Shown here: positions 37,962 to 62,607 of the stretch, piece by piece
Position numbering within the stretch: position 1 is the stretch's first letter
How the letters are laid out: each line of letters begins with the position of its first letter
From: Candidatus Omnitrophota bacterium
Lineage (GTDB): Bacteria > Omnitrophota > Gorgyraeia > Gygaellales > Profunditerraquicolaceae
Assembly (NCBI GenBank): GCA_026387335.1
Contig: JAPLLX010000006.1
Location: 125,702-189,701 of the forward strand
Reading direction: 5' to 3'
DNA: 64,000 nucleotides
The notes under the pieces: generated by a model
Told to the model about the DNA's origin: nothing
Databases searched by the model: none
What the model saw: only the letters and a program-made list of their open reading frames with translations
Translations under genes and position numbers: made by a program

Positions 37962-38873
37962 TTATAAAAACCAGGTTATCAAGGCACCTAAAAACATCCA
38001 GGTAGCAAAGGGAAGATTTTTTTTAACAATTCTATCCGCATGCAGGTCTACTATCCTTTGAAACAGCGGCGCCAAAAGTATGACTAACAAAGTTTTTCCC
38101 AATATGCTTTTTATATCCAGGACAAACCGCTCCCAGGGGTAATCCATCTTTAAAAAAACATAGCCCATTAAAATTAAAAGGGCTAAGGATATCATTTTGA
38201 TATTTTTGTTAAAAAATCTGGAAAGCGGCGTAAACACAAATAAAGAAATTACTATAAGAATATTCTGATCGCCTGGAATCCTGCTCCCAAACAGATTGTA
38301 TAGCGACACATTGATCACCTTAAACAACAAAAAAAAGAAAAAAAACCCCAACAGGATATCACCGGCTTTGACTATATTAAATTTTGCCAGCTTTCCCTTA
38401 ATGAACCCATAAATCTTATCTCCAGGCTTAGAAAAATTAAACGTATTAGCAAAATAAACCCCGGACTTCACAATCAAAAATATGGTAGGCGGTATAAAAA
38501 TAGCCGACAATAATAAAAAGGCGGCAAAATAATAATTAAAATATACTTTAGAATATTGTCCTATAGGGATAAGCGCAACATAACAAACAAACAACTTAGC
38601 ATCGCCGGCCCCCCACATTCTAAAATGCCATAATACGTAAGCAACCAAACCGCTGATGAGCAAGTTTATGCACCATTTATCAAAGTTCCAGGTTAAGCCA
38701 GGGTTGGTCAGAGAGGGCTTACAGAAAATCCAAATCAAGGCGTAAGCAAAAAAAGAATAAAGCAGGCCAAGGATGACCCATTTATTTTTAATCTTGCTTT
38801 CCTTTATATCTTCGTAACTGGTAATAAAACCGATAAGAAGAATTATGGGTAGGAAAATTACATTGCTTGCCAT
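37962..38873 (-). CDS. A24-family prepilin peptidase-like membrane protein (CpaA/TadV/FlaK-like) with a long C-terminal polytopic extension
   Basis: 303 aa polytopic membrane protein. First catalytic-Asp context (YEDIKESKIKNKWVI, compare D-x5-IPN) and second motif (WGAGDAKLF, compare GGGDVKLL) both match A24 aspartic peptidases. Confidence 0.6.
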   Translation of the reverse strand: MASNVIFLPIILLIGFITSYEDIKESKIKNKWVILGLLYSFFAYALIWIFCKPSLTNPGLTWNFDKWCINLLISGLVAYVLWHFRMWGAGDAKLFVCYVALIPIGQYSKVYFNYYFAAFLLLSAIFIPPTIFLIVKSGVYFANTFNFSKPGDKIYGFIKGKLAKFNIVKAGDILLGFFFFFLLFKVINVSLYNLFGSRIPGDQNILIVISLFVFTPLSRFFNKNIKMISLALLILMGYVFLKMDYPWERFVLDIKSILGKTLLVILLAPLFQRIVDLHADRIVKKNLPFATWMFLGALITWFL

Positions 38874-38876
38874 AGT

Positions 38877-39356: not shown

Positions 39357-40328
39357 TTAGTTAAATTGGATAATAAAAGGGGTTTCGGGAGCAAACTGCT
39401 TTTTTTGCCATTTGATTCTTTTTATCGCCCTGCCCCTTTTTAAGATTACCGTATCCTTACCTTCCAAAAATACACAATCGCCTCTTTTTAAATCAGCTTC
39501 ATAAAGGTTATTCTCCGGCATCTGCCCGATAAAATAAACATTTTTATAATATATCCTTTTATTTTTTATCTCACCCTCAAAAGCGTAAAATTTTCTCTCG
39601 TAAAAGACAAGCAGAGGCAATTTCAGATGCCTGTCAATATTCCTGACTAATTCCGGTTCCTCCTCATAAATAGCGCTCCTTATCTTCTTGGTCAAACTCA
39701 GGGTCTTGGCGCAATCATAAGAACAGGGCATATGATAAATATAAGAATACGTCACATCTTTAGTAAAAGGGTTGCACAGGAACGGATGCTTACCTTGAGG
39801 CGTATTTTTTAGTATCTCATAAAGGTGGCTGTACTTATTCCAGTTATTATATTTCCGAAAGAAAGCGACACAGCAGGCCGGATAGCCCAGGTCATGCCCG
39901 AATTTGAAAGCGTCTATCAACGGTTTATCGATAACCCTGTTTTTTATGATCAAAGGGTACCATCCGTTTCGAAGAGCCTTATCTAAGTTATTTTTTGTTT
40001 TAGCTACGAAGACATGGACAGCGCTATTGACCCGCGGCTGATTTAACGGCAAGCCAAAAGCGGTAGTGGTAGTTAAACGCTCCCTGCCCACAATACCCAT
40101 AGGTAGATCTGTTTTTTTGACTACATCAAAAATAGTATCTGGCTCAACAAAAAGCCCGTAGCTGGCACATATATTATTATACGCCTTAAGCCTGTTTACC
40201 GGTATCCAATCATCCATACAGGGCTTGATTCCCTTAATGGTAGCCATAATCATTACCAATTGGCCGCTATAGCCTTTTATCTCCACAAATTCCCTGCAGA
40301 ACTTTTTAGGCAAAAATGGCTCAAACAT
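39357..40328 (-). CDS. Hypothetical protein with conserved Cys/His motifs (GYPACC ... HMPCSYDC)
   Basis: 323 aa ORF tightly packed in the operon (0-nt gap to the TPR gene; 1-nt overlap with the upstream rSAM gene). No family recognised from sequence alone. Confidence 0.4.
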   Translation of the reverse strand: MFEPFLPKKFCREFVEIKGYSGQLVMIMATIKGIKPCMDDWIPVNRLKAYNNICASYGLFVEPDTIFDVVKKTDLPMGIVGRERLTTTTAFGLPLNQPRVNSAVHVFVAKTKNNLDKALRNGWYPLIIKNRVIDKPLIDAFKFGHDLGYPACCVAFFRKYNNWNKYSHLYEILKNTPQGKHPFLCNPFTKDVTYSYIYHMPCSYDCAKTLSLTKKIRSAIYEEEPELVRNIDRHLKLPLLVFYERKFYAFEGEIKNKRIYYKNVYFIGQMPENNLYEADLKRGDCVFLEGKDTVILKRGRAIKRIKWQKKQFAPETPFIIQFN

Positions 40329-41212
40329 TATTTAATAGGTTTAAATTCATTCCAACCAAAAATCTCCGGATATTCACGCCAAGGCCCCTCGCAACATTTA
40401 AAATACCTGCATTTCTTACAATTCGGTCCCTTAAGCTTCCCCTCTTCCTTGCGCCAACGGCTGAAATCCTCATTTATCTTTACATCAAAAACCTTGGTTT
40501 CCGGTATATGCTGCTCCGCTATACAATCCCGGTATTTGCCCAAAAGACAATAAGGTATCGCCTCTGTCCTGACGATCCTGCCTCTGGCGATCCCGATCTT
40601 TAAACCTTTTTTGACATAAGGCATGATCTCTTTTTTCCGGGGGACTATAAAACTAATATTCTTAAGGGCATTCCCTAAAATATGAGGATAAGCAAATTGA
40701 TACTGCGGTACGCCTAAATCGATCAGAAAATCAGCGATTTCGGGTAAGAAACGGTAGTTTTTCTGGTTAATGACCGTATTCGTGACCACCATCTTACCTA
40801 AGGATAAAATATTTTTAATACCCGCGCTACTCTGTTGGAAACTTCCTCTGGCGCCGGTAAGGTAATCATGTAACCTGGCATTATGTCCATGGATAGATAC
40901 GGCAAACATATCCGCCCCTGCCTTAATTATATCCCTACAAAAATCTTTATAAACAAACATCCGGCCATTAGTCTGAAGCTGCACCTTATACCCTAAACCC
41001 TTGGCAAAACTGACCAATCCTATGATATTAGGCCTTAAGGTAAGTTCACCGCCGGTAAATACCACCTCCCCAAAAGCTTTCCTGGACTTTTTTAAAATCT
41101 CCTTGATCTCTTGATCGCTCTTATCGGGGCAAAAATCCCTTTTATCGCCCTGTACGCAAAATTTACAGTGGTTATTGCATTTAAAACTAACCTTGATGTC
41201 AATACGATTCAT
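40328..41212 (-). CDS. Radical SAM protein with C-terminal Cys-rich (SPASM/twitch-like) region
   Basis: CNNHCKFC (CxxxCxxC) at residues 12-19; FTGGELTL glycine-rich motif; C-terminal CKKCRYFKCCEGPW. Confidence 0.85.
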   Translation of the reverse strand: MNRIDIKVSFKCNNHCKFCVQGDKRDFCPDKSDQEIKEILKKSRKAFGEVVFTGGELTLRPNIIGLVSFAKGLGYKVQLQTNGRMFVYKDFCRDIIKAGADMFAVSIHGHNARLHDYLTGARGSFQQSSAGIKNILSLGKMVVTNTVINQKNYRFLPEIADFLIDLGVPQYQFAYPHILGNALKNISFIVPRKKEIMPYVKKGLKIGIARGRIVRTEAIPYCLLGKYRDCIAEQHIPETKVFDVKINEDFSRWRKEEGKLKGPNCKKCRYFKCCEGPWREYPEIFGWNEFKPIK

Positions 41213-42135
41213 CTAAAATATACTCCTATTTCTTTATTTTCCAGCGTTAAATACGACACGCCGGCGGAGATACCCTCTATTATAGCACCGGTAGAAATTA
41301 ACCAGCTATTTAATCGCGCTGGGACAGGCTTCATAATAGGCTGTAACGATTTAAATGGGGTCGGCTTTTTAAGGCGGGCCCAAATTTTAACTGATTCAAT
41401 GCGGGACGTTTTATCTATGCGATAAAGAAAACCGATATGTCTTAAGGGAATCTTCCCTATGACAGCAAGATAATGCCCCAGATATATATCTTTGCTGTTT
41501 TGATATTTCCTGTACGCCCTTGGTATATCAGATAGATTAAACGCGGGACGTAAAATTGTATAAATTTTAAGCCGGCAACAACCATTATGTAAAAAATCAA
41601 TTCCTATCGCGTCAAACTGCGTATCTAAAAAATTGTTTTTTAATTTCAGCCAGCTTAAACCTAAAAGAGCGCAGAGCCTCTCCATTAAATAACCGCATTG
41701 AGCGTTATCGCTGATAACGCTAAGATATATTTTCATTACAGGCGGTTTGTTTTTTTTAAGCGTATACCCGAATTGAACAGGCCAGGAGGTATCATCCATA
41801 GAAGAAGTCAGGTCTTTTAGTATATTTAAATTAAACCTAAAACCTGATTCCTTATTCACGTAGCTGATTATACTGGCGATAGATTCAATCCTTTTCTTCC
41901 TTAAGACCCTGATTTTATTATAAGGAAGACCCGGCTTGTAAAAATTAAGGTGGAGTAATCGGATAGCTCTTTCAGAAGAAACAAGCGAAGACTCAAATGT
42001 ATTCAGGCCGCCGGAGGATCCGCCAAGACTACTGCTCCAGAGCATTTTTGTAATCTTATTCAGGTCTAATGACGAATAAATATCCCATTTTTTAGTTAAG
42101 GATAAGATTAAATTTTGTACCTGGGCGCCTTGCAT
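41209..42135 (-). CDS. Hypothetical protein
   Basis: 308 aa, with a repeated strand-like K(I/V)Y/W pattern (MKIYLSV, CRLKIYT, VKIWARL). No confident family assignment. Confidence 0.35.
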   Translation of the reverse strand: MQGAQVQNLILSLTKKWDIYSSLDLNKITKMLWSSSLGGSSGGLNTFESSLVSSERAIRLLHLNFYKPGLPYNKIRVLRKKRIESIASIISYVNKESGFRFNLNILKDLTSSMDDTSWPVQFGYTLKKNKPPVMKIYLSVISDNAQCGYLMERLCALLGLSWLKLKNNFLDTQFDAIGIDFLHNGCCRLKIYTILRPAFNLSDIPRAYRKYQNSKDIYLGHYLAVIGKIPLRHIGFLYRIDKTSRIESVKIWARLKKPTPFKSLQPIMKPVPARLNSWLISTGAIIEGISAGVSYLTLENKEIGVYFR

Positions 42136-42143
42136 ATTCTAAC

Positions 42144-43259
42144 CTACTCAAAAATACGTTTTTTTGCTTCTTGGACATATTCCTTAAAGATCGGATCACT
42201 TTTTGCTTTTTTCAATACTTCCCTGGCTAGATCAACGGAACAAGAATCGCGTATTTGTAAAACCTTATTGAAATTTACACCTTTAGTGGCCTCTGTTTGG
42301 ACTTCATTACTGCTGTAATTTCTCCAACATTGCCTGCATTGAGCACAGCCCGGATCATGCTTACAAAATCGGTATTTATTTTTTAGTCCTTCCTGGATGT
42401 CTCCTATTATATATTTTTCTTTATCTTTGGAATTGATCAAAAAGGGAGAAAAGGCCAGCGTGCCATCCGGATGGACCTCCAGACTCCCAAAAAATGGACA
42501 CTCTTTATCCCGGCTACTTATTCTTTTATCTTTTAGTTCGCGGTTGACCGTATTGAGAAAGATAAAATTCCCTCTCTTAATATTAGCATATATATATTGC
42601 CTTAATTTAACCATTCCTTTTTGGAAACACTCTTTTTGCTTTATACTCCAGCTAAATCGCCGGCTACAGATAGGCTCGATATTAATACTGCTAAACCCTA
42701 AATCCGTTAAATAGAGCAAATTATTGTATATTTTATCCGCTAAAGCGGGCAATACCCCGAATAAGGCACAAAGTTTTTCTTGTTTTATATTCTTTAAAGC
42801 CAGGGGGAGCTTGTTCAATACAGCGTCAAACGAACCCTTTTGATTGCCAAAAACCCTATTTTTATCGTGATAGTCTTTACGGCCATCCAAACTAATGGCT
42901 AATCCTATTTTGGCCTTTTTGAAAAAGCTTAATTGTCGCTGATTCAATAAAATTCCATTTGTGCCCAAAGAGATGCTTAAAGACTTCTTAACCGATCTTG
43001 CTCTTTTTTGGGCAAAGTTTATTATTCTTTTAACGAGCTTGAATTTTAAAAGAGGTTCGCCTCCGTAGAGCATAAGTAGTTTTTGATTACCCGGTGAATT
43101 TAAAAACAGGGTTATTGCTTTAATGGCGACCGGATAGGTTATTGTTTGGTTGTTTTTATACACAAAACAATAGCGGCAATCTAAAATACACTCAGTGGTG
43201 ACGGTTAACCTCAGAAGATAGATCTCTTTGTTAAATTGGACGGGTAAATTAGTCAACAT
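42144..43259 (-). CDS. Radical SAM/SPASM-domain peptide-modifying-type enzyme (anSME/PqqE-like architecture)
   Basis: CILDCRYC motif, LYGGEPLL, and a C-terminal auxiliary-cluster region CPFFGS...CKHDPGCAQCRQC. Confidence 0.85.
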   Translation of the reverse strand: MLTNLPVQFNKEIYLLRLTVTTECILDCRYCFVYKNNQTITYPVAIKAITLFLNSPGNQKLLMLYGGEPLLKFKLVKRIINFAQKRARSVKKSLSISLGTNGILLNQRQLSFFKKAKIGLAISLDGRKDYHDKNRVFGNQKGSFDAVLNKLPLALKNIKQEKLCALFGVLPALADKIYNNLLYLTDLGFSSINIEPICSRRFSWSIKQKECFQKGMVKLRQYIYANIKRGNFIFLNTVNRELKDKRISSRDKECPFFGSLEVHPDGTLAFSPFLINSKDKEKYIIGDIQEGLKNKYRFCKHDPGCAQCRQCWRNYSSNEVQTEATKGVNFNKVLQIRDSCSVDLAREVLKKAKSDPIFKEYVQEAKKRIFE

Positions 43260-43268
43260 ATTGTTTTG

Positions 43269-44120: not shown

Positions 44121-44133
44121 AGATCCAACAGGG

Positions 44134-45687: not shown

Positions 45688-45704
45688 ATTATCATTCCTT
45701 AGGA

Positions 45705-49549: not shown

Positions 49550-49704
49550 TATTTCCCCGGAATTAGCTTCTTTTTGGTATTATATTCTGTCTTCCGGCAA
49601 TCCGCAAGCACTTTCAATCCAGCAAAATAAATTGAAATCGGAAAGTTAATATGGTTTAATAAGCAAGAGAGTTCGATACACTCTTCTAAAAACCTTACCT
49701 AAAT

Positions 49705-51306: not shown

Positions 51307-52443
51307 TCAGGCATCAAAACCCAGACCCGTGATATCAATAACCTTGCGCAGGTCTTTGTATTTTTTAAGTCGCAGCAATTTATTAAACAAATCTAGGCTG
51401 TTTTTTAATTCTACCCCGCAGGCCTTTTTAGTAGCTGAATAAGGGTAAACATCTACCCTGGAAAAACTAAACCTTTTTAAGAAATCTAAAGTCTGGACCA
51501 AATCATCTTTAGTCTCACCCGGGAATCCGACAATAATATCGGTAGTCAAACGTAGATTACGCACCTTGCGGCATAATTTATTAAACAACATCCGCAAGTA
51601 GGCGGAATCATATTTTCTACGCATCATCTTTAAAATACGATCGGAAGCCGACTGGATAGGAACACTTATTTCTTTATTGATCTTATCATTTAAGATGAGC
51701 TCCATAAGCTTATCCGATAAATCGTTGGGATAAAATTCCAAATAAAATACCTCCAGATTAGTCTGGGCTAAAATAAATTCTAATAACTGAGTGAAGGTAA
51801 AATGTTTGTTCCGCGGGTCATGCCAACCGCCCATGCAGGGCCCGCCAAATTCAATCCTCTTTATCCCTCTTAACCCCAACTGCCTAATCTGCTTTTTAAC
51901 CTCACTAAAACTGACATTCCTATTTTTCCGCAGGCAGGGGCAAATACAATAACGGCAATAATTATTGCACCCATTTTCTATTAATATTATCCCGGAATTA
52001 AGAGTGTTACGGTAAACCGGTTTATTAGATGAGGCTAGTGTTTTTCTTAAATATCCGGCAATGCCTTCTTCCCTTATAAATAATATATTCCGGAGACCTT
52101 TTATCTTGGTCTCTGGCAATGACGAGGATGGATAACTCAAGGAACAACCGCTTAATATTATCAAAGCTTCTTTATTGACCCTCCTAATGTAAAACAAAAA
52201 ATTCTTTACAAATTTTTCTAAGTAAGCGGTTATCGGGCAGGCATAAATAATAAAAACCTTTGCTTTGAAAGCCAGGCGTCTTTCTTGCGAATCGCGGAAG
52301 AAATCCCGGTCATCTCCAAAATATTGGTTATAGATAGAAAAGGAATTCTCTAAGGCAAAAGTTAACTGTTGCGCTTGGAACCGGTTAGCCGCGCAACCGT
52401 AAGATTTAATAAAAATGTCCGGATTTTTATTATTTTTAGGCAT
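51307..52443 (-). CDS. MiaB-like methylthiotransferase-family radical SAM protein (no TRAM domain evident)
   Basis: N-terminal MTTase block IKSYGCAANRFQAQ; rSAM motif GCNNYCRYC; 378 aa. Confidence 0.75.
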   Translation of the reverse strand: MPKNNKNPDIFIKSYGCAANRFQAQQLTFALENSFSIYNQYFGDDRDFFRDSQERRLAFKAKVFIIYACPITAYLEKFVKNFLFYIRRVNKEALIILSGCSLSYPSSSLPETKIKGLRNILFIREEGIAGYLRKTLASSNKPVYRNTLNSGIILIENGCNNYCRYCICPCLRKNRNVSFSEVKKQIRQLGLRGIKRIEFGGPCMGGWHDPRNKHFTFTQLLEFILAQTNLEVFYLEFYPNDLSDKLMELILNDKINKEISVPIQSASDRILKMMRRKYDSAYLRMLFNKLCRKVRNLRLTTDIIVGFPGETKDDLVQTLDFLKRFSFSRVDVYPYSATKKACGVELKNSLDLFNKLLRLKKYKDLRKVIDITGLGFDA

Positions 52444-52445
52444 CT

Positions 52446-53828
52446 CTAAAAATACAGATATTTCATATCGGCCCGCTTAATCCTGCCGGCTAGAGGAGAA
52501 AGTACTGCCCTGCATTTAGCAATAATTTTTTGATCATAAAAATATTTAGAAAAAATGGCGTACTCGCCCATATTAGCCGATTTAGAGCATAAAAATCCCG
52601 GTGTATCTTTAATTTTTTTTCTTGTTTTTAAATAGGCTATTTCTTTAGCGAAAACCTTATCCGGGTCTTTTTTAAAAATATCCCTGAATCTCTCTTTGCT
52701 GACCCTGCCGTAACGCAGCCAACTGGTTATAAAATATATCATTTCATCTCTTTGGGTTAGGCGGCAGGTTGATTGAATCGGGAGCTTCCCTTGGTTTAAA
52801 GAATAACAGTATTTATCCGGGTCGTTAAGATTAACGTATCTTGAATAACCGGTGGCATGAGAGACCGCCCCGGCTCCTAGACCTAAAAATGGGCTGTTGT
52901 GTTCTATCGCATCGGAGAGTTGGACATTCCGAGCTGCCGGGTTTAGGCCGTTAGCGTCAAATTCTATCGCCGCGTATCCGGCTTGCCTAATAACTGCCTG
53001 GCTGATTTTGGCCAAACGCTCTCTTAGATCCATCTCTTCTTTAGAAAGCTGGCCTCCGGCTTGCATAAATGCGGTTAAGGCTGTCGGATAAAAGGGATGG
53101 ATATGGATCAATTCGGGCCGCAGCCGAATTACCTCCTCAAGGGTTTTCAAAACACTCTTAGCGGTTTGCCCGCTTAATCCTACCATTAAATCAACATTAA
53201 TGTTGGCTATTCCGGCGTTGCGGGCATCCTGAAAACAGCGCTCAAATGATTCTTTTGACTGATAGCGATTAGCGGACTCTAGGACCCGGCTATCTAAACT
53301 TTGGATACCTATAGTCAGCCTATTCACGCCGTATTTCTTTAATAATTTGAGCTTAGTCCAAGATAAAAAATCAGGATTCCCCTCAAAGGATATTTGTCGG
53401 CATTGATTAAGGTTAAAACTCATATACAGAGCATCAAATAACTCTTTTAATTGGCCTAAGCTTAATAAAGCTGGCGTGCCGCCGCCAAGATAAACTGAAG
53501 ATAGGGGAAATTTTGCGAATAATGGTTTATAGATTTTTATTTCTTTCTTTAAGGCGGCGAGGTAATCTTTTAATGCGGCCCTTTGCGCTAACTCTTGAGA
53601 AAAATAACGGCAGAATGAACATTTTTGCTTGCAAAAGGGTATGTGCACATATAACCCCAGGTGCCTAAAATTATTGGCCAAGGATTTTGACCATGACCTT
53701 AAGATTTCCCGGTTTGAACGGGCTTTCCCCCACAAAAACATCGGGGGATATTGAATAGTGTAACCGCTAAAATCCGTATTAGCGATTCCCTCGGTGATAC
53801 GCTTGAACAAAAAATCGTTATTTTCCAT
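52446..53828 (-). CDS. HemN-like radical SAM protein (HemN/HemW; class C rSAM methyltransferase-type architecture)
   Basis: YVHIPFCKQKCSFCRYF and the HemN-family fold length (460 aa). Confidence 0.8.
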   Translation of the reverse strand: MENNDFLFKRITEGIANTDFSGYTIQYPPMFLWGKARSNREILRSWSKSLANNFRHLGLYVHIPFCKQKCSFCRYFSQELAQRAALKDYLAALKKEIKIYKPLFAKFPLSSVYLGGGTPALLSLGQLKELFDALYMSFNLNQCRQISFEGNPDFLSWTKLKLLKKYGVNRLTIGIQSLDSRVLESANRYQSKESFERCFQDARNAGIANINVDLMVGLSGQTAKSVLKTLEEVIRLRPELIHIHPFYPTALTAFMQAGGQLSKEEMDLRERLAKISQAVIRQAGYAAIEFDANGLNPAARNVQLSDAIEHNSPFLGLGAGAVSHATGYSRYVNLNDPDKYCYSLNQGKLPIQSTCRLTQRDEMIYFITSWLRYGRVSKERFRDIFKKDPDKVFAKEIAYLKTRKKIKDTPGFLCSKSANMGEYAIFSKYFYDQKIIAKCRAVLSPLAGRIKRADMKYLYF

Positions 53829-53833
53829 AACAT

Positions 53834-54978
53834 TTAATTAAGCAATTGCCGGGTCCCGTAAATTTTAGTAAACAAGCGGTTCCGGTGAAGTTTTCTTTCT
53901 ATTTCGAGAAAGGTATGGATATAAATCTGAGACAAGCGGCAGAATTGGGGAAAGTAGCGCTTAAAATCTAAGCCCCAAGAAGAAAAATAAATATAATGCC
54001 CAACCGGGCAGAAGCAGTATCTTAAATATTTACATCTATTGCAATCCTTACCGGTTAATTCCCTTATTTCTTTTCTCTTTTGGGCTAAGAGCTTAAGCCG
54101 TAAACGGTTATTTATCCCTTTATGGATATCCCCGATAATAAATTTTTTTCTTTCCGGCTGGGCTATAGAAAATACTTTATCGCAGCAATAAAAATTCCCC
54201 TCCCAACCTAAGTGGATTTTCTGGCAACGAATGGGTTTATAAAGCCCTTTTCCTCTTATAAATGTACCCAATAAAGAATTTTCAAAAATATCTTTACTAT
54301 CTTTGGCTTTCTCAAAGATAGAGATATAGAAATCGCTAAACTCCCGGAATGCTGATTCGGCTTTATCTAAGCCAGCTTTTGACCATTGGGTGTAAAGGTT
54401 AGGGAAGAAATTAATGCGGTTAAACCCCAGATTCCGGAGATATTTTATATTTTTGAGCAGGCCGCTGATTGTCTGAGGCGTAAAGACTAAAGCGGAATAT
54501 ATTTTATGTCTGGTGTTATCCAGATCCAGTCGCTTTAAGTTCCCGGCTAGGCGATCATGACTAGAGCCATATGCTTTGCGCTTGAAAGGACGGTTGGAGT
54601 CTTGAACCTTTTTCTGGCCGTCTATACTGACTGTGGTTATAATCCTGTTTTCTTTTAAAAAACTTGACCGGCTGGGAGTCAGAAGAGTACCGTTAGTAAC
54701 AACCGTAACCGCTAATTTTGAACTTCCCTTATTCTGCTGAATATAATGATACAGCTTTTTTAACTTTCCAAACCTTAAACAAGGTTCCCCGCCGACAAAA
54801 TTTATACTCTTAGTGTTTCCGGGAGATGTTAAAAAAAAACTACGGCCTTCTTTAACTGCTCAACATCCAGTTCTTTATCTTTACAACTGTCCTTTTTAAC
54901 GAAACAATAATGGCAATCTAAATTACAGTGCTTGGTCAAAAAGATGTTCAACGCCTCGGGATGACTTTCTAACACCAT
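53834..54978 (-). pseudogene. Radical SAM/SPASM maturase (HxsC-like position) interrupted by a single-base frameshift in a T9 homopolymer (54831-54839)
   Basis: From the ATG at 54976-54978: MVLESHPEALNIFLTKHCNLDCHYCFVKK...VVFF then stop. Reading on in the +2 frame through the T-run gives FFLTSPGNTKSINFVGGEP... and runs continuously into the annotated C-terminal fragment (53834..54271, CCDK...CNRCKYLRYCFCP). One extra T (T10) would restore an intact protein of about 380 aa. Confidence 0.7.
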
Positions 54979-55307
54979 CCCCCTCCTCGCCCATGGTTAC
55001 CGTGGTTAGAGTGGTTAGAGTGGTTAGAGTGGTTACTATGGTTGGTGTGCGAACTGGAATGTGGCGTAGAGGAAGTATGGCCGCCTCCCCCCCCAGAGAC
55101 GAGCGAGTTACTATGGCTGGAATGACTGGCATGCTGGGCCTGAGCGCCTTTAGGTTCTAGCATCATTCCCAATACGGCTAAAGATATGCCTAATTTAGCA
55201 ATATTCTTCTTAGAGGCGTTCCCTTCTTCATTAAAAAGAAAGTCTTTAATATTTCTTTTAGTAACGGGCAATTTTTTATTCACCTTCTTATGGAGCTTTT
55301 TTTTCAT
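54969..55307 (-). CDS. His/Ser-rich triplet-repeat secreted peptide (His-Xaa-Ser-repeat precursor-like)
   Basis: Likely start is MKKKLHKK (ATG 55305-55307), 6 nt after AAGGAGG; the ORF-track GTG start at 55376 overlaps the upstream gene. Hydrophobic segment IAKLGISLAVLGMMLEPKGAQA, then HASHSSHSNS...GGGGG...HSSSHTNHSNHSNHSNHSNHGNHGRGGGWC. Its stop overlaps the start of the downstream rSAM gene. Confidence 0.55.
   Translation of the reverse strand: MKKKLHKKVNKKLPVTKRNIKDFLFNEEGNASKKNIAKLGISLAVLGMMLEPKGAQAQHASHSSHSNSLVSGGGGGHTSSTPHSSSHTNHSNHSNHSNHSNHGNHGRGGGWC
54993..55047 (-). repeat. Tandem 9-bp coding repeats (GTGGTTAGA x3 perfect, plus degenerate flanking units) encoding the HSN triplet repeat
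   Basis: gtggttaga gtggttaga gtggttaga gtggttact atggttggt. Confidence 0.85.
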
Positions 55308-56073
55308 TACGCGCCTCCTTATTAAGGGTAGCACAATATTTCTGGATAAATTCTTCAAATCCCTCATACTTTTCACAAGTAGTTTCGTCCCCGCTGATAT
55401 AACCCTGGCACATTAATCTTATATTAGGATCTTTTATTCCGTTGCATTTAGCAAGATTCTTTTCCTTAATCGCTTTTATATAAATGACTTTATCTACACA
55501 AAAATCATTCTTGCACAGTTTAACGTTTCCGGTGGTAAAAGCCCTGCATTCATTGCGTTCTGCTTCATTTTGCGCCTTTTCACAGACAGAACTATCATTG
55601 TTCAGCACTCCTTGCATAAATAGTTTAAACCCTTCACTATTCCGGTCCTTCCAGGAATTCATCAATTGCAGGCTGTTAAAGCCGGACTTAAAAAATCTGC
55701 CGTATATACCCTGATACTCGGTAAAATTAACCCGGCAGTCTTCCAGAAGAGAAGGTTGTAAACTAAGTTTGCCGCATTCCTCTATATCATCCTTTACCAC
55801 TGAACGGCAGTAGATACAACCAGTTAGAAGCTCCACTATCGGGGCCACTCGGGGATCATTAAAGTCTACCTTGTTAATATAAAAATCCTTAGAGCAATCT
55901 GCTGGCTTTTTTTCTTGAGGATAAGTCTCCACTTCTTGGGGATAATCCTCGATTAACTCGGCTTCGCTAAAAAGGAAAGAAAAATGGCTACTCAACATAA
56001 GAGAAACCAGAGACAGGAAGATGACCTTTAGGGCTAGTTTAAATTTGTCCATTATCAGCTCCTCATCACCCAT
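55288..56073 (-). CDS. Cys-rich secreted/membrane-anchored protein (16 Cys in the mature part)
   Basis: 261 aa; N-terminal hydrophobic helix LALKVIFLSLVSLMLSS; cysteines in spaced pairs (CIYC, CEKAQNEAERNEC, CKNDFC). Lies between the rSAM gene and the His/Ser peptide. Confidence 0.5.
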   Translation of the reverse strand: MGDEELIMDKFKLALKVIFLSLVSLMLSSHFSFLFSEAELIEDYPQEVETYPQEKKPADCSKDFYINKVDFNDPRVAPIVELLTGCIYCRSVVKDDIEECGKLSLQPSLLEDCRVNFTEYQGIYGRFFKSGFNSLQLMNSWKDRNSEGFKLFMQGVLNNDSSVCEKAQNEAERNECRAFTTGNVKLCKNDFCVDKVIYIKAIKEKNLAKCNGIKDPNIRLMCQGYISGDETTCEKYEGFEEFIQKYCATLNKEARNEKKAP

Positions 56074-57497
56074 TTATAAAATATATCCTTTATCTTCTCA
56101 TCTTTGAGCTTAATAAATAAATAATCCAAAATACCCTTATTGATCTGGCACCAAAATGCGGACTTATTAAAAATGTTCCCATTTATGGTATAATTCTGCA
56201 AAGGACATACCCCGCAATAGGGTTTATATACGCACTGGCTGCATTCGGGAAGATTATCCAGGCATGACGCTATGCACATCGTTTTTACCACGTTACTCTT
56301 AAAAAAATCCCTGTGCGAACCGGTCCTTACATTACCCAGCCTAAAAGATTCGTCTTTCTGCCGGCTCATCATCCTTCCTTCGTCACAGGCATAAACATCG
56401 CCATTAAAATTATAAGCCATTTGCCCTGTCCCTGCCCCGCAGGGAGAACGCAAATCAACATAACCCGGATCTTTATCCGTCAAAATTTTAGTTAAAAATA
56501 TCACGGCGAACCTTTCCCGAAAATCTTTGCCTTTCATATTCAAATCTATTATATGATCCAAAGCCTTTTTATAAAAAGTAAGGAAATCCTGCCCGGAGAA
56601 AGCTAACCTCTTCCATACCTTCTTATTAGTCCCAAACGGGCTTAGCGGCCTTAAATGCATCCCTTCCAGCCCTAATTTTACATATTCATTGACAATTTCT
56701 TTCGGAAAAGGAAGGGCCAGGCGGGTAATCGTAGCCAGAGCGAACGGCTTATGGCAGGAATTTGCTTTTTTATACTCCCTTATTAATCTTTTCAGCCATT
56801 TAACCGTATTTTTATGACTATTTTTATTCCCCAGAGTAACCCTGCATTTGTTATGCACCTTTTCGGGCCCATCCAATGAAGTGCATATATGGATATCGTT
56901 CTTTAAAAGGTACTTAACTATTTTCTCATTCATAAAGGTCAAATTGGATACAACGGTAAAACGCAAGTCCTTCTTGGCTTTTTTGTTCTTCTCTTGAGCA
57001 TACCGAACAATAAATTTTATAATTTCAAAATTGACTAAGGGTTCGCCTCCCTGAAATTCAATAGTAATTCCTTTATTGGCAGATTCAAAAATCCTATCGA
57101 CAACTTTTTCAGCCGTAGCTATATCCATATCTAATTCATTTTCCTTAAGATCCCGGGAACTTGCCTGACAATAAATACACTTATGGTCGCATCTTAAAGT
57201 AACTACCACAATATGTAAAGCGGTGCCTGCACTCCTTAAAAACATATTTTTTTGCACGTATCTTTGGGCCAGGTTATCAAAGTTTAACTGACCCCGGATA
57301 AAACCTTTATTCCGCAACTGGGAATACTCTTGGGGCGAAGCTTGTTCTATTTTACCGCTAAGGAAGGCGTTAAAACTTGGGGGCTGCAAAAAAATATAAT
57401 CCCCTATGACATTAGTCAGCAAATATTGCCCGTTTAACCGCTTAAATTGAAAGAAACCGACCTTCTGTCTATCTATCTTTTCAGACTCTAGCAACAT
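56055..57497 (-). CDS. Radical SAM/SPASM peptide-maturase-type enzyme with an about 100-aa N-terminal extension (HxsB-like position)
   Basis: LRCDHKCIYCQAS; FQGGEPL; C-terminal SPASM CGAG...YACDEG ... CSQCVYKPYCGVCP. Confidence 0.85.
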   Translation of the reverse strand: MLLESEKIDRQKVGFFQFKRLNGQYLLTNVIGDYIFLQPPSFNAFLSGKIEQASPQEYSQLRNKGFIRGQLNFDNLAQRYVQKNMFLRSAGTALHIVVVTLRCDHKCIYCQASSRDLKENELDMDIATAEKVVDRIFESANKGITIEFQGGEPLVNFEIIKFIVRYAQEKNKKAKKDLRFTVVSNLTFMNEKIVKYLLKNDIHICTSLDGPEKVHNKCRVTLGNKNSHKNTVKWLKRLIREYKKANSCHKPFALATITRLALPFPKEIVNEYVKLGLEGMHLRPLSPFGTNKKVWKRLAFSGQDFLTFYKKALDHIIDLNMKGKDFRERFAVIFLTKILTDKDPGYVDLRSPCGAGTGQMAYNFNGDVYACDEGRMMSRQKDESFRLGNVRTGSHRDFFKSNVVKTMCIASCLDNLPECSQCVYKPYCGVCPLQNYTINGNIFNKSAFWCQINKGILDYLFIKLKDEKIKDIFYKWVMRS

Positions 57498-57700
57498 TTC
57501 TTGGTCGCTCCTAAGACGTAATTGTTAAATTCATCTACAAATATATCCTTGACCTGCGTATCTATATTCTCTATTTTTACTTCTAGGTAATCTTTACAAT
57601 CCTTGACCCTGAATTTTGCCAGATGAGCATAAGCAAGGATCGCTTTCTGGATCGCCTTTTTTTTATAAAACCGAGTATTAAATCTTACGTTTTCTGGCAT
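57488..57700 (-). CDS. Small hypothetical protein (70 aa, ends ...KKCC)
   Basis: ORF overlapping both neighbours within the operon; no family recognised. Confidence 0.3.
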   Translation of the reverse strand: MPENVRFNTRFYKKKAIQKAILAYAHLAKFRVKDCKDYLEVKIENIDTQVKDIFVDEFNNYVLGATKKCC

Positions 57701-58082
57701 TTTTCTGTTTTCTATGTTTCTTTTTCCAAGGCAAAGCTATACCTAAAGGATCATCCTGATAATCCAGTTTTTCGGAAAGACTGACTACACCCGGACCCGG
57801 TAAAGTAGTATATAAAGCGCGGCCAACGATATATTCCCTGATCTTTTTGTTATTCTTACTTATCTCGTATCTTAAGGCGCAGCGCAATAGCTCATTCTTG
57901 AATTCACCTTTTAACGCTTCCAGTTTTTTACCCGCAACCTTGCCTTTACTTTTAAAAAAAACCTTAATCTGATTTCCCTTAAGATCGCTATCCAAAAAAA
58001 TGTAGACGCGGTCAATAAATAAATAACAAGCATTCAAAATAGCTTCTAAAGGATAGATTCTTGCGCTTAGCTTAATCTCCAC
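57678..58082 (-). CDS. Small hypothetical protein with basic C-terminal tail (possible HxsD-like accessory protein; unverified)
   Basis: 134 aa, GTG start; located between the secreted paralogs and the rSAM/SPASM gene. Confidence 0.35.
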   Translation of the reverse strand: MEIKLSARIYPLEAILNACYLFIDRVYIFLDSDLKGNQIKVFFKSKGKVAGKKLEALKGEFKNELLRCALRYEISKNNKKIREYIVGRALYTTLPGPGVVSLSEKLDYQDDPLGIALPWKKKHRKQKNARKRKI

Positions 58083-58115
58083 TAAACTCCGCTCCTTCCT
58101 AAACTTAAGATTCCC

Positions 58116-58950: not shown

Positions 58951-59028
58951 TGCACCTCTTAGCATAATTCCTACTTGACCCTGCCCGCTCTTAAGAATAA
59001 ATTATCATAACTCCTGCAATGAGTCAAG

Positions 59029-62606: not shown

Positions 62607-62607
62607 T

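What the first reader, a model, noticed from the sequence alone, without database searches (positions are those of the whole stretch)
53834..58082. His-Xaa-Ser (Hxs)-like module: His/Ser triplet-repeat peptide flanked by paired rSAM/SPASM maturases and small accessory ORFs
The ORF at 54969-55307 ends in HASHSSHSNS...HSSSHTNHSNHSNHSNHSNHGNHGRGGGWC. A 480-aa rSAM/SPASM enzyme with an N-terminal extension lies just upstream (56055-57497). A shorter rSAM/SPASM gene lies immediately downstream, with its start overlapping the peptide's stop. Two small ORFs (57488-58082) sit upstream of the pair. This architecture parallels the described HxsA-HxsB/HxsC-HxsD system, a bioinformatically predicted RiPP-like system whose product and function are still unknown. 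Here it is embedded in a far larger rSAM operon and is accompanied by a 16-Cys secreted protein.
Basis: partly seen in the sequence, partly recalled or inferred. Interest (0 to 1): 0.8.

Follow-up and report, generated by a model that had tools for sequence, protein, structure and literature searches.

The report
Variant His-Xaa-Ser radical-SAM peptide system
An uncultivated Omnitrophota bacterium carries a divergent version of the His-Xaa-Ser (HXS) system, in which radical-SAM enzymes modify an exported histidine-repeat peptide; this version has a short peptide ending in GGWC, an extra dedicated enzyme whose gene needs a conserved frameshift to be read, and its HxsC-like enzyme encoded 14 kb away.

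Summary
All genes are on the minus strand. They are HxsD (57678-58082), an HxsD-like protein (57488-57700), HxsB (56055-57497), a membrane-anchored Cys-rich protein (55288-56073), a 112-aa His-repeat precursor (54969-55307) and a SPASM radical-SAM gene (53834-54978).

HxsB, HxsD and HxsD-like pass NCBIfam curated cut-offs. The precursor resembles HxsA3/HxsA4 but scores below their cut-offs.

Three corrections:
- The adjacent second radical-SAM gene is not HxsC. The HxsC-like enzyme lies at 40328-41212.
- That adjacent gene is interrupted at a T9 run. The run is conserved in four lineages, and the downstream frame is under purifying selection (dN/dS 0.13-0.19). This points to recoding, not decay.
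- The canonical HXS system was shown in 2026 to be an anti-phage system, so "function unknown" is outdated.

About 100 related loci from Omnitrophota and Patescibacteria share one leader (LPxIKKxLKxFLxSEEGK), His repeats and varied C-termini. GGWC-ending peptides always co-occur with the adjacent enzyme family (12/12 versus 0/16).

Most likely this is a leader-guided radical-SAM maturation system for an exported His-rich envelope peptide. Its biological role is inferred only. Verdict: new variant of a known kind.

The parts
57678..58082 (-). HxsD (134 aa)
   Evidence: TIGR03976 scores 66.9 bits against a cut-off of 50. Pfam PF27806 HxsD is recorded on the identical gene. It is the first gene of the block in every related locus.
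57488..57700 (-). HxsD-like small protein (70 aa), a distant paralogue of HxsD
   Evidence: NF038315 HxsD_rel scores 69.3 bits against a cut-off of 41; it scores 20.6 on the HxsD model. It sits between HxsD and HxsB in most related loci.
56055..57497 (-). HxsB, radical-SAM/SPASM maturase with an N-terminal extension (480 aa)
   Evidence: TIGR03978 scores 505.9 bits against a cut-off of 370, covering residues 15-477. Pfam Radical_SAM, Fer4_12 and SPASM all hit. It is 36-39% identical to annotated HxsB genes on plasmids.
55288..56073 (-). Membrane-anchored Cys-rich all-helical protein (261 aa as listed; homologues start at M8, position 56052). It has 13 Cys and its 3' end overlaps the peptide gene by 20 nt.
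54969..55307 (-). HxsA-like precursor (112 aa). It has a basic leader (about residues 1-36), a hydrophobic stretch ending in AQA (37-57), a His-Xaa-Ser/Asn core (59-108) and an invariant C-terminal GGWC.
   Evidence: HxsA3 scores 44.6 bits (E 9e-12) and HxsA4 31.1 bits, both below cut-off. In the alignment of 18 homologues the invariant residues are P14, K21, L24, E27, E28, G29, K34, H102, H105, G109, W111 and C112. It is the only such precursor in the window.
54994..55035 (.). 9-bp tandem repeat (4.7 copies) encoding the HSN triplets
   Evidence: Tandem Repeats Finder, score 70, 93% matches.
53834..54978 (-). Second radical-SAM/SPASM-type gene ('rSAM2'; 381 aa when the T9 shift is bridged), specific to GGWC-type peptides and not HxsC
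   Evidence: There are 83 homologues of 370-385 aa that align to the bridged sequence over 98% of its length. CxxxCxxC plus seven conserved C-terminal Cys are present. The best NCBIfam hit is PapB at 131.6 bits (cut-off 340); HxsC is absent from the list. Against canonical HxsC, BLASTP gives E 0.19. It co-occurs with GGWC peptides in 12/12 loci against 0/16 for other cargo.
54831..54839 (-). T9 run (A9 on the + strand): the site where the rSAM2 reading frame shifts by -1
   Evidence: The same T9 and the same -1 requirement occur in L034, L106 and the 98%-identical strains L108/L109. The downstream frame has dN/dS 0.13-0.19. This is the only A/T run of 9 or more inside a gene in the 64-kb window.
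40328..41212 (-). HxsC-like radical-SAM protein (294 aa), the likely true partner of HxsB
   Evidence: The best NCBIfam hits are NF038332 HxsC4 (152.4 bits, cut-off 500) and TIGR03977 HxsC (91 bits, cut-off 267.9). BLASTP against Aeromonas HxsC gives E 8e-11. Orthologues (284-489 bits, about 50% identity) occur in loci of every cargo type.
42144..43259 (-). Third SPASM-type radical-SAM protein (371 aa), an accessory of GGWC-type loci
   Evidence: PapB-like at 146 bits (cut-off 340). Orthologues of at least 180 bits were seen only in GGWC-type loci.
41209..42135 (-). Conserved protein of unknown family (308 aa) next to the HxsC-like gene
   Evidence: No family hit. Homologues occur in L002, L005, L008, L013, L018, L020 and L093.
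37962..38873 (-). A24 (prepilin-peptidase-type) membrane peptidase, a candidate leader peptidase
   Evidence: Pfam Peptidase_A24 scores 29.3 bits against a cut-off of 26.5. Homologues occur in 8 distinct related loci and lie directly next to the leader-bearing protein in L043/L045/L100 and L099.
51307..53828 (-). HemN-like (52446-53828) and MiaB-like (51307-52443) radical-SAM genes directly downstream of rSAM2
   Evidence: These are sub-threshold HemN/STM4012-type and MiaB/RimO-type hits. The HemN-like gene follows rSAM2 or HxsA in L002, L008, L012, L015, L016, L018, L019 and L093.

Best explanation
This is a non-canonical His-Xaa-Ser (HXS-type) maturation system in an Omnitrophota chromosome.

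Shown by sequence:
- A 112-aa precursor carries a conserved basic leader (LPxxKRNIKDFLFNEEG), a signal-peptide-like hydrophobic stretch ending in AQA, a 54-residue core with 12 His at period 3 (H-x-S, then H-x-N), and an invariant C-terminal GGWC.
- It is encoded together with bona fide HxsB, HxsD and an HxsD-like protein.
- An HxsC-like radical-SAM enzyme is encoded 14 kb downstream in the same minus-strand gene string.
- A separate SPASM-type radical-SAM enzyme (rSAM2) is encoded right after the peptide. Its family is found only with GGWC-ending peptides.

Inferred:
1. In the cytoplasm the leader recruits HxsB with HxsD and HxsD-like, together with the HxsC-like enzyme. These install radical-SAM modifications on the His triplets. 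This mirrors the E. coli HXS system, where HxsB/C/D are needed for maturation of HxsA.
2. rSAM2, probably with the GGWC-linked 371-aa SPASM enzyme, modifies the C-terminal Trp-Cys, most simply by a thioether or C-C cross-link.
3. Full-length rSAM2 is made only when the T9 run is bridged. This could be by transcriptional slippage to U10 or by -1 ribosomal slippage on U_UUU_UUU. Either would set or limit its level.
4. The modified peptide is exported through its hydrophobic segment and the leader is removed. Cleavage is by signal peptidase at AQA or by the clustered A24 peptidase. This leaves a His-rich modified peptide in the envelope, possibly held by the membrane-anchored Cys-rich protein.

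Confidence by layer: about 0.75 for 'leader-guided radical-SAM maturation of an exported His-repeat peptide of the HXS kind', about 0.5 for 'rSAM2 acts on GGWC', and about 0.3 for an anti-phage barrier role like canonical HXS.
For: - HxsB, HxsD and HxsD-like are above curated cut-offs.
- The precursor matches HxsA3/HxsA4 profiles end to end (E 9e-12 and 3e-7).
- The HxsC-like enzyme lies at 40328-41212. Its orthologues occur in loci of all cargo types.
- The order HxsD, HxsD-like, HxsB, [Cys-rich, HxsA], rSAM2 is conserved in Omnitrophota. The order HxsD, HxsD-like, HxsB, rSAM2, HxsA is conserved in Patescibacteria.
- The leader, the hydrophobic stretch, an AxA-like site, the His triplets and GGWC are conserved in 18 aligned peptides. 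GGWC is kept even where the peptide gene does not overlap rSAM2.
- GGWC and rSAM2 co-occur in 12/12 loci, against 0/16 for other cargo, among loci found through the leader alone (Fisher 3e-8).
- rSAM2 has CxxxCxxC plus 7 conserved C-terminal Cys.
- The same T9 with a -1 requirement occurs in 4 lineages from at least 5 samples. The downstream frame is under purifying selection (dN/dS 0.13-0.19, dS 0.9-1.2).
- Precedent for slippage on a run of U fusing two ORFs: mxiE (PMC1088944).
- Experimental precedent: HxsB/C/D-dependent processing, a +8 Da change within an HxS repeat, and periplasmic action of HxsA (PMC13128918).
- Chemical precedent: His-C2 to X3-C-beta cross-links on H-x-x motifs made by radical-SAM/SPASM enzymes (PMC11499958).
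Against: - No experiment exists on any member of this variant.
- The precursor is below the HxsA3/HxsA4 cut-offs and has no hit to canonical HxsA. It lacks the peptidoglycan-binding domain and the Arg-rich repeats on which the proposed DNA-binding mechanism of canonical HxsA rests.
- The HxsC-like enzyme is below both HxsC cut-offs and is 14 kb away. Ten other genes lie between, so co-function rests on synteny in other loci.
- The GGWC and rSAM2 link is a correlation among related genomes. Phylogeny inflates the statistic.
- Export and the cleavage site are read from sequence pattern only; no signal-peptide predictor was available.
- No conserved stimulatory RNA structure follows the T9 run.
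- The locus is not in a recognisable defence island. It sits in a conserved biosynthetic cluster of small-genome lineages, which argues against a purely accessory defence role.
Confidence: 0.72

Rival explanations
1. The product is a diffusible RiPP natural product, such as an antimicrobial or signalling peptide, not an envelope-resident effector. The leader is removed and a cross-linked His-rich peptide is released. The cross-links would be triceptide-like His cyclophanes on H-x-S/N plus a C-terminal thioether.
For: - The precursor is short, with a separate conserved leader and a variable core.
- Several SPASM enzymes have their nearest characterised relatives among RiPP maturases such as PapB, SCIFF and YhhB.
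- His-x-x cyclophane chemistry is established (PMC11499958).
- Both Ser and Asn occupy the third position, as expected if only a beta-CH2 is needed.
Against: - All hits to characterised RiPP maturases are far below their cut-offs (62-146 bits against 310-445).
- The same leader also heads proteins of 150-550 aa with large C-terminal domains. That fits a protein-modification and export system better than a small-molecule pathway.
- No transporter or peptidase of the usual RiPP kind (PCAT/C39) is in the cluster.
- The only studied relative (HXS) makes a protein effector.
Confidence: 0.25
2. The product is a metal-binding peptide for acquisition, buffering or delivery of Ni, Zn or Cu. The His triplets and terminal Cys would be the ligands, and radical-SAM cross-links would pre-organise them.
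For: - The 54-residue core has 12 His, 15 Ser, 10 Gly and one Cys, and no Arg/Lys except one Arg. It lacks the basic residues invoked for DNA binding in canonical HxsA.
- The system is widespread in small-genome lineages, which suggests a housekeeping role.
Against: - No metal transporter, metallochaperone or metal-responsive regulator was seen among the cluster genes scanned.
- His-rich composition alone is weak evidence.
- The long-cargo relatives do not look like metallophores.
Confidence: 0.2
3. The product is a surface-assembly substrate. The leader plus hydrophobic stretch would act as a class-III (prepilin-like) signal cut by the clustered A24 peptidase at the K-x-G | hydrophobic junction. 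The hydrophobic helix would stay on the mature protein as an anchor or assembly module, with the His-rich tail exposed.
For: - An A24-type peptidase is in the window cluster (37962-38873) and in 8 related loci.
- It lies directly next to the leader-bearing gene in two other architectures (L043/L045/L100 and L099).
- A Gly, Ser or Thr precedes the hydrophobic stretch in all aligned leaders.
- Glycosyltransferases, TPR proteins and small secreted proteins share the cluster.
Against: - The site lacks the usual charged residue at -2 and Glu at +5 of type IV pilins.
- An AxA-like signal-peptidase-I site follows the hydrophobic stretch.
- The A24 gene is missing from many loci with long flanks.
- No pilus ATPase or platform protein was identified next to it.
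Confidence: 0.15
4. The system is decaying. The frameshift in rSAM2 would mark a pseudogene, and the module would be inactive in this organism.
For: The rSAM2 frame is broken at 54831-54839 in the window and in every assembly of this species.
Against: - The same T9 occurs at the same codon in lineages 26-29% divergent in protein (L034, L106).
- There is no second lesion in up to 331 downstream codons, and dN/dS is 0.13-0.19 at dS about 1.
- All other genes of the module are intact.
- Relatives have an in-frame T7 at the site.
Confidence: 0.05

Closest known systems
Canonical HXS (HxsD-HxsB-HxsC-HxsA) anti-phage system of Pseudomonadota. Predicted by Haft and Basu in 2011 (as cited in PMC9062424). 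Function reported in Nat Commun 2026 (PMC13128918).
   Same: - HxsB and HxsD orthologues are above curated cut-offs.
- An HxsC-like radical-SAM partner is present.
- The substrate has tandem His-Xaa-Ser-type triplets downstream of an export signal.
- Maturation before export is the expected logic.
   Different: - The substrate is 112 aa, against about 190-214 aa.
- It has no peptidoglycan-binding domain and no Arg-rich repeats. The triplets are largely His-Xaa-Asn, and it ends in GGWC.
- It has a long conserved leader in place of a plain signal peptide.
- It adds an HxsD paralogue, an rSAM2 enzyme, further SPASM, HemN-like and MiaB-like radical-SAM genes, and a Cys-rich membrane protein.
- The HxsC-like gene is 14 kb away, not adjacent, and is below the HxsC cut-off.
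- The host phylum is Omnitrophota/Patescibacteria, whereas 99.7% of canonical systems are in Pseudomonadota.
NCBIfam variant families HxsA3 (NF038309), HxsA4 (NF038313), HxsC4 (NF038332) and HxsD-like (NF038315). These are database models only; I found no publication on them.
   Same: - The leader and core align to the HxsA3/HxsA4 profiles end to end.
- HxsD-like passes its cut-off.
- The 294-aa enzyme's best hit is HxsC4.
- A locus whose peptide NCBI names HxsA4 (L025) has the same layout: HxsD, HxsD-like, HxsB, X, HxsA, several radical-SAM genes.
   Different: - The window peptide is below both HxsA cut-offs (44.6 against 65; 31.1 against 55).
- Of 13 GGWC-type peptides scanned (three Omnitrophota-type including the window's, ten others), only one passes.
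- HxsC4 scores 152 against a cut-off of 500.
- No model exists for rSAM2, the 371-aa SPASM enzyme or the Cys-rich protein.
- The HxsA4-named locus (L025) has no rSAM2, and its peptide ends in W, not GGWC.
Triceptides: three-residue cyclophane RiPPs made by radical-SAM/SPASM enzymes, including the His-modifying HaaB, HtkB and YhhB (PMC11499958)
   Same: - The aromatic-X-X triplets have His in the first position and a residue with a beta-CH2 (Ser or Asn) in the third.
- SPASM-type maturases are guided by a leader.
   Different: - The maturases here are not members of those families (YhhB model 62-78 bits against a cut-off of 445).
- The only mass change reported for an HXS substrate is +8 Da, not -2 Da.
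- The array has up to about 40 triplets and can be fused to large proteins.
Ranthipeptide/SCIFF-type thioether maturases (PapB, SCIFF maturase)
   Same: PapB is the best-scoring characterised relative of rSAM2 and of the 371-aa enzyme. A single invariant Cys at the peptide's C-terminus would suit a thioether donor.
   Different: The scores are 131-146 bits against a cut-off of 340. There are no CxxxD/Cys-rich motifs, and the window peptide has only one Cys.
Recoding at homopolymer runs: Shigella mxiE (run of U, one extra nucleotide fuses two ORFs) and Thermus dnaX (A9) (PMC1088944; review PMC5009743)
   Same: A run of 9 T inside a gene, two overlapping frames, and a full-length product requiring one extra U or a -1 ribosomal slip. 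The run is conserved across lineages.
   Different: It occurs in a peptide-maturase gene of an uncultivated phylum. The mechanism (transcriptional or ribosomal) is untested, and no conserved downstream structure was found.

Membership tests
Canonical HXS system (HxsDBCA) | HxsB radical-SAM/SPASM maturase (TIGR03978, cut-off 370 bits) | tested here: met
   505.9 bits over residues 15-477. The Pfam SPASM domain is present.
Canonical HXS system (HxsDBCA) | HxsD small protein (TIGR03976, cut-off 50 bits) | tested here: met
   66.9 bits for 57678-58082.
Canonical HXS system (HxsDBCA) | HxsC radical-SAM maturase (TIGR03977, cut-off 267.9 bits) adjacent to HxsB | tested here: not met
   For the adjacent rSAM2, TIGR03977 is not among the 25 best hits, BLASTP against Aeromonas HxsC gives E 0.19, and hhalign covers only the radical-SAM core. 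The distal 294-aa enzyme (40328-41212) is HxsC-like but scores 91 bits, below cut-off. It lies 14 kb from HxsB.
Canonical HXS system (HxsDBCA) | [quoted passage not shown] | tested here: not met
   The window peptide has no TIGR03979 hit at E <= 0.01 and no Pfam domain. It is 112 aa and its core has one Arg and no Lys.
Canonical HXS system (HxsDBCA) | Blocks phage DNA entry; HxsB/C/D-dependent processing and a +8 Da modification | not testable with these tools
   This is an experimental property (PMC13128918). PADLOC 2.0 holds no Hxs models, and even canonical HxsC gives no hit.
NCBIfam HxsA3/HxsA4-type variant systems | HxsD-like protein (NF038315, cut-off 41 bits) | tested here: met
   69.3 bits for 57488-57700.
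NCBIfam HxsA3/HxsA4-type variant systems | Precursor passes HxsA3 (NF038309, cut-off 65) or HxsA4 (NF038313, cut-off 55) | tested here: not met
   44.6 and 31.1 bits. The E-values (9e-12 and 3e-7) and the full-length profile alignment show homology, not membership.
NCBIfam HxsA3/HxsA4-type variant systems | HxsC4 radical-SAM protein (NF038332, cut-off 500 bits) | tested here: not met
   152.4 bits for 40328-41212, which is its best hit. The counterpart in a locus whose peptide is named HxsA4 also scores only 177, so the cut-off is very narrow.
   Alignment A2 of 18 peptides. Of the 120 best profile hits, 57 end in GGWC.
   Present at 53834-54978. The co-occurrence is 12/12 against 0/16 in leader-ascertained loci.
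Triceptides (three-residue cyclophane RiPPs) | Maturase belongs to a 3-residue-cyclophane-forming family (for example YhhB NF041707 cut-off 445; GrrM/OscB TIGR04261 cut-off 310) | tested here: not met
   HxsB scores 62.4 and 64.7, rSAM2 scores 69.6 and 55.0, and the 371-aa enzyme scores 78.3 and 56.4 bits.
Triceptides (three-residue cyclophane RiPPs) | Aromatic-to-C-beta cross-link (-2 Da) on aromatic-X-X motifs | not testable with these tools
   The motif is present in sequence (H-x-S/N). The chemistry needs mass spectrometry and NMR.
Ranthipeptide maturases (PapB family, NF047865, cut-off 340) | Score above cut-off | tested here: not met
   rSAM2 scores 131.6 bits and the 371-aa enzyme 146.2 bits.

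The most novel reading that the evidence does not exclude
The conserved leader plus hydrophobic segment is a dedicated targeting signal of Omnitrophota and Patescibacteria. It first docks cargo on an HxsB / HxsC-like / HxsD / HxsD-like radical-SAM machine. It is then cut by the co-clustered A24 aspartyl peptidase, like a class-III signal, so that heavily modified His-repeat peptides and proteins are displayed on the cell surface. The cargo ranges from 75-aa GGWC peptides to 550-aa proteins. In one Omnitrophota clade the GGWC-specific enzyme is additionally gated by programmed slippage at a conserved T9 run. This would be a new protein-modification-and-display pathway, not just another RiPP or defence cassette.
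Probability: 0.2. Interest if true: 0.85.

Novelty: new variant of a known kind. Interest (0 to 1): 0.6.

Why it matters
- The HXS system has just been shown to be the first defence that stops phage DNA at the envelope, and its chemistry is unsolved. It was thought to be almost confined to Pseudomonadota.
- This locus shows that a large, mostly unannotated sister group exists in Omnitrophota and Patescibacteria. It has at least 770 precursor clusters and about 100 loci were read here. The HxsB/HxsD core is the same, but the substrates are much simpler: short peptides with up to ten clean His-Gly-Ser triplets.
- Such substrates are far easier to analyse by mass spectrometry than the insoluble 214-aa HxsA. 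They could therefore make the radical chemistry of HxsB and HxsC testable.
- The strict pairing of a C-terminal GGWC with one enzyme family gives a ready-made hypothesis for a second reaction.
- The conserved T9 interruption under purifying selection is a candidate case of programmed recoding in an uncultivated phylum.
- The system sits in core biosynthetic clusters of small-genome bacteria. This raises the question of whether HXS-type modification is primarily a defence or a more general envelope function.

Tried and rejected
- **PADLOC scan**: no Hxs models exist in version 2.0, and canonical HxsC is also blank. The scan therefore says nothing about defence.
- **Look-up of P0001's contig**: not on record.
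- **Cys-rich protein, first model**: AlphaFold2 with a 3-sequence alignment gave pLDDT 62, and Foldseek against PDB gave nothing with E <= 0.001.
- **RNA structure downstream of the T9 run**: the consensus is only -9.6 kcal/mol and mostly pairs the T run with an A run. There is no evidence for a frameshift stimulator, so ribosomal and transcriptional slippage cannot be told apart.
- **Promoter and terminator scan of 53-61 kb**: counts are within the shuffle expectation, so no operon boundaries can be drawn.
- **Sequencing error at T9**: rejected. The run appears in five contigs of the species from several samples, assembled by different pipelines, and in two diverged lineages.
- **rSAM2 as HxsC**: rejected.
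- **GGWC conserved only because it overlaps the rSAM2 start codon**: rejected. In Patescibacteria the peptide gene lies after rSAM2 and still ends in GGWC.
- **Lipoprotein-type signal**: considered because many Patescibacteria cores start with Cys after the AxA-like site. The -3 position is not consistently hydrophobic, and the Omnitrophota peptides have no such Cys.

Full report
**1. What is in the sequence**

All genes of interest are on the minus strand. Reading 5' to 3' on that strand:

| Gene | Coordinates | Size |
|---|---|---|
| B12-type radical-SAM gene | 59029-60597 | |
| Two paralogous small secreted proteins | 58471-58965, 58116-58457 | |
| Small ORF | 57678-58082 | 134 aa |
| Small ORF | 57488-57700 | 70 aa |
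| Radical-SAM/SPASM gene | 56055-57497 | 480 aa |
| Cys-rich ORF | 55288-56073 | 261 aa |
| His-repeat ORF | 54969-55307 | 112 aa |
| Radical-SAM gene starting inside the last codons of the peptide | 53834-54978 | |
| HemN-like radical-SAM gene | 52446-53828 | |
| MiaB-like radical-SAM gene | 51307-52443 | |

- The peptide gene has an AAGGAGG Shine-Dalgarno sequence 6 nt before its ATG.
- Its last 54 residues contain 12 His, mostly 3 apart. The third residue of each triplet reads S,S,N,S,S,N,N,N,N,N,N.
- Four to five of these triplets are encoded by a 9-bp tandem repeat.
The Cys-rich protein has 13 Cys, not 16. The downstream radical-SAM gene is not a single open frame.

**2. Family tests**

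Results against NCBIfam:

| Protein | Model | Score (bits) | Cut-off |
|---|---|---|---|
| 480-aa enzyme | HxsB (TIGR03978) | 505.9 | 370 |
| 134-aa ORF | HxsD (TIGR03976) | 66.9 | 50 |
| 70-aa ORF | HxsD-like (NF038315) | 69.3 | 41 |
| Peptide | HxsA3 | 44.6 (E 9e-12) | 65 |
| Peptide | HxsA4 | 31.1 (E 3e-7) | 55 |

- The peptide aligns to both HxsA profiles end to end but stays below the cut-offs. It does not hit canonical HxsA.
- I bridged the frameshift in the gene after the peptide to obtain a 381-aa protein ('rSAM2'). It scores best on PapB (131.6 bits, cut-off 340) and on HxsB (113 bits). HxsC is not among its 25 best hits.
- I fetched a canonical hxsDBCA operon from an Aeromonas plasmid. 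Its HxsC gives BLASTP E 0.19 against rSAM2. A profile comparison aligns only 151 columns of the generic radical-SAM core. rSAM2 is therefore not HxsC.
- The 294-aa radical-SAM protein at 40328-41212 has HxsC4 (152.4 bits) and HxsC (91 bits) as its two best hits. It matches the Aeromonas HxsC with E 8e-11. It is HxsC-like, though below both curated cut-offs.

**3. Related loci**

- The window stretch 52370-58178 is identical to a Logan contig from run SRR20698650.
- Strains about 98% identical at the DNA level occur in two other samples.
- rSAM2 has 83 homologues, nearly all 370-385 aa. Where named, they come from Omnitrophota, Parcubacteria and Moranbacteria.
- A genome scan returned 18 loci (Omnitrophota, Saccharibacteria, Moraniibacteriota, Parcubacteria). 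A metagenome scan with the peptide's leader returned 80 more.
- Gene order is conserved. Omnitrophota-type loci read HxsD, HxsD-like, HxsB, Cys-rich protein, peptide, rSAM2. Patescibacteria-type loci read HxsD, HxsD-like, HxsB, rSAM2, peptide.
- Almost every locus encodes a peptide with four shared elements:
  - the leader (consensus LPxIKKxLKxFLxSEEGK);
  - a hydrophobic stretch of about 15 residues;
  - an AxA-like site;
  - His triplets and the invariant C-terminus GGWC.
- A profile of 18 such peptides finds at least 770 protein clusters, nearly all unannotated. Of the best 120, 57 end in GGWC. The rest end in an aromatic residue (…HSSY, …HGQW, …HTSW).
- The same leader also heads proteins of 150-550 aa, in which up to about 40 His triplets precede a large C-terminal domain.
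- Of 13 GGWC-type peptides scanned (three Omnitrophota-type including the window's, ten others), only one passes the HxsA3/HxsA4 cut-offs.

**4. Which genes travel together**

- I took only loci found through the leader and collapsed identical C-termini. rSAM2 (at least 200 bits on its family HMM) is present in 12 of 12 GGWC-type loci. It is present in 0 of 16 loci with other cargo (Fisher 3e-8). The sequences are related, so this is a strong correlation and not a true probability.
- The 371-aa SPASM enzyme (42144-43259; PapB-like, 146 bits) shows the same restriction to GGWC-type loci.
- Orthologues of the HxsC-like 294-aa enzyme (about 50% identity) behave differently. They occur with GGWC, GQW, long-protein and CCCGTT-type cargo alike, usually 1-5 kb after the precursor.
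- The conserved core is therefore HxsD, HxsD-like, HxsB, the leader-bearing substrate and the HxsC-like enzyme. rSAM2 and the 371-aa enzyme are accessories of the GGWC subtype.
- In the window, about 13 kb of further genes separate the precursor from the HxsC-like gene. These are HemN-like, MiaB-like, asparagine synthase, U32 peptidase, glycosyltransferases, a methyltransferase and more radical-SAM genes.
- A locus whose peptide NCBI names HxsA4 has the same core layout. It has no rSAM2, and its peptide ends in W.

**5. The frameshift**

- In the window the rSAM2 0 frame reads …GCC GTA GTT TTT TTT TAA. The rest of the gene is in the -1 frame (AGT TTT TTT TTA ACA TCT CCC GGA…).
- With ten T's the protein aligns without a gap to intact homologues: …KKAVVFFLTSPG… against …KKAVNIFLTLPG….
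- The same T9, at the same codon and with the same -1 requirement, is present in:
  - the 98%-identical strains;
  - L106 from run SRR12676968 (GCG GTT TTT TTT TAG);
  - L034 from a JGI metagenome (GCG AGT TTT TTT TTA ATA).
- These lineages are only 71-74% identical in protein. Yet the downstream frame has no further lesion, and dN/dS is 0.13-0.19 at dS 0.87-1.19.
- Closer intact relatives have an in-frame T7 at the site. About 30 other homologues are intact.
- It is the only A/T run of 9 or more inside a gene in the whole 64-kb window.
- This excludes sequencing error and recent decay. It points to recoding, either by insertion of one U during transcription or by a -1 ribosomal slip on U_UUU_UUU.
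  - The transcription route has a precedent in Shigella mxiE (PMC1088944).
  - In the window and L106 a 0-frame stop directly follows the slippery site.
- No conserved downstream structure was found, so the two routes cannot be distinguished here.

**6. The Cys-rich protein**

- It has no family assignment.
- It belongs to a family of 125 representative clusters of 220-260 aa.
- With a 76-sequence alignment AlphaFold2 gives a confident model (pLDDT 88.5). The model has one N-terminal transmembrane helix, a linker and an all-helical repeat with conserved Cys.
- It accompanies both GGWC and non-GGWC peptides in Omnitrophota-type loci.
- Its gene overlaps the precursor gene by 20 nt. Its role is unknown. 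A membrane-anchored partner or holder of the exported peptide is a guess.

**7. What is known**

- The His-Xaa-Ser system was defined bioinformatically by Haft and Basu (cited in PMC9062424).
- In March 2026 the E. coli HxsDBCA system was reported to give broad anti-phage protection by blocking DNA entry.
  - HxsB, HxsC and HxsD are needed for N-terminal processing of the 214-aa HxsA and for a +8 Da change in the SHRSS repeat.
  - Mature HxsA is periplasmic, binds peptidoglycan and binds DNA.
  - 99.7% of systems found through HxsA are in Pseudomonadota, and 99.6% have the order D-B-C-A (PMC13128918).
- Separately, radical-SAM/SPASM 'triceptide' synthases are known to link His-C2 to the beta-carbon of the third residue of H-x-x motifs (PMC11499958).

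**8. Most likely mechanism**

Shown:
- The component families, their conservation and their co-occurrence.
- The anatomy of the precursor.
- The recoding site.

Inferred:
1. The leader docks the precursor on HxsB, with HxsD, HxsD-like and the HxsC-like enzyme. These modify the His triplets.
2. rSAM2, probably with the 371-aa enzyme, modifies the GGWC end.
3. rSAM2 synthesis depends on slippage at T9.
4. The peptide is exported through its hydrophobic segment and loses the leader. Cleavage is at AQA by signal peptidase or at the K-x-G junction by the clustered A24 peptidase. The A24 peptidase lies next to leader-bearing genes in other architectures.
5. The His-rich product acts in the envelope.

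Probabilities:
- About 0.75 for the maturation-and-export logic.
- About 0.5 for the rSAM2-GGWC assignment.
- About 0.3 for a phage-barrier role.

The substrate lacks the peptidoglycan-binding domain and the basic residues of HxsA. The locus also sits in a conserved biosynthetic cluster of small-genome lineages, not in a defence island. The rivals are a diffusible RiPP, a metal-binding peptide, an A24-processed surface component, and decay. They are listed with their tests.

**9. Novelty**

- The kind is known: an HXS system, with NCBIfam models for some variants.
- New here:
  - the delimitation of a large GGWC-ending subfamily with its own SPASM enzymes;
  - the recognition that the HxsC-like partner is distal and that the adjacent enzyme is something else;
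  - the common leader on very different cargo;
  - the spread through Omnitrophota and Patescibacteria;
  - the conserved T9 recoding site.
- I rate it a new variant of a known kind, with interest 0.6.

Noticed in passing
window 54831-54839 (A9 on the + strand); also L034:2756-2764, L106:217-225, L108:11213-11221, L109:3369-3377: A conserved T9 run interrupts the rSAM2 gene with a -1 frame requirement in four lineages from at least five samples. The downstream frame is under purifying selection (dN/dS 0.13-0.19). This is a candidate programmed transcriptional slippage or -1 ribosomal frameshift. Intact relatives have an in-frame T7 at the site.
   Followed up: yes
window 58116-58457 and 58471-58965 (minus strand); L002:5935-6507; L005:6340-6885; L030:3726-4226: Two paralogous small secreted proteins lie directly upstream of HxsD. 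They share a motif TTYYPSPYG(S/V)Y after the signal sequence, and the longer one has a Cys-rich C-terminus (…LCCG). They share a roughly 230-bp stretch at about 92% identity (cross-matches of the L108 strain against the window). Homologues occupy the same position in other Omnitrophota loci. No Pfam or NCBIfam hit was found.
   Followed up: partly
L044:3269-4903, L051:2320-3831, L058:3726-5240, L071:6998-8374, L018:16895-18562, L085:6989-7654, L081:5417-5860, L099:665-1903: The same leader and His-triplet array are fused to quite different cargo. One type is a protein of about 500 aa with a conserved domain starting CCPFI(I/V)LWNGK and ending …KSKGYY…. Another is 150-220 aa and ends CCCGTTGY…. 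A third is a 412-aa Asp/Tyr/Asn-rich protein. All sit directly after HxsB or next to an A24 peptidase.
   Followed up: partly
window 37962-38873; L043:294-1454, L099:1929-3086, L005:19273-20196, L017:16192-17061, L003:20093-21043, L021:4373-5323, L011:18652-19668, L013:667-1644: An A24 (prepilin-peptidase-type) membrane peptidase recurs in these clusters. In two architectures it lies directly next to the leader-bearing gene, which hints that it processes the leader.
   Followed up: partly
[not shown]
   Followed up: yes
window 38000-58000 versus flanks: The radical-SAM cluster has lower G+C (0.37-0.40) than the flanks (0.44-0.47 below 14 kb and above 60 kb). This may reflect foreign origin or just the composition of these genes.
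   Followed up: no
window 60619-63759 (minus strand): Directly upstream of the cluster lie a ferredoxin-domain ETF alpha subunit, an ETF beta subunit and an acyl-CoA dehydrogenase. The Pfam assignments come from the genes of the about 98% identical strain, L108. They are probably unrelated to the peptide system.
   Followed up: no
window 40328-60597: Nine radical-SAM genes lie in 20 kb: B12-type, HxsB, rSAM2, HemN-like, two MiaB-like, a 283-aa MoaA/tungsten-maturase-like, a 371-aa PapB-like and the HxsC-like gene. With them are two glycosyltransferases, a methyltransferase fusion, an asparagine-synthase homologue on the opposite strand and a U32 peptidase. Whether all act on the one precursor is open.
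   Followed up: partly
L014:13601-14561 and L018:15667-18562: Some Patescibacteria-type loci carry two or more leader-bearing substrates side by side. Examples are a GGWC peptide next to a 179-aa form ending in …CPCCAGVGAEI, or next to a 555-aa form. One enzyme set may therefore serve several substrates.
   Followed up: no
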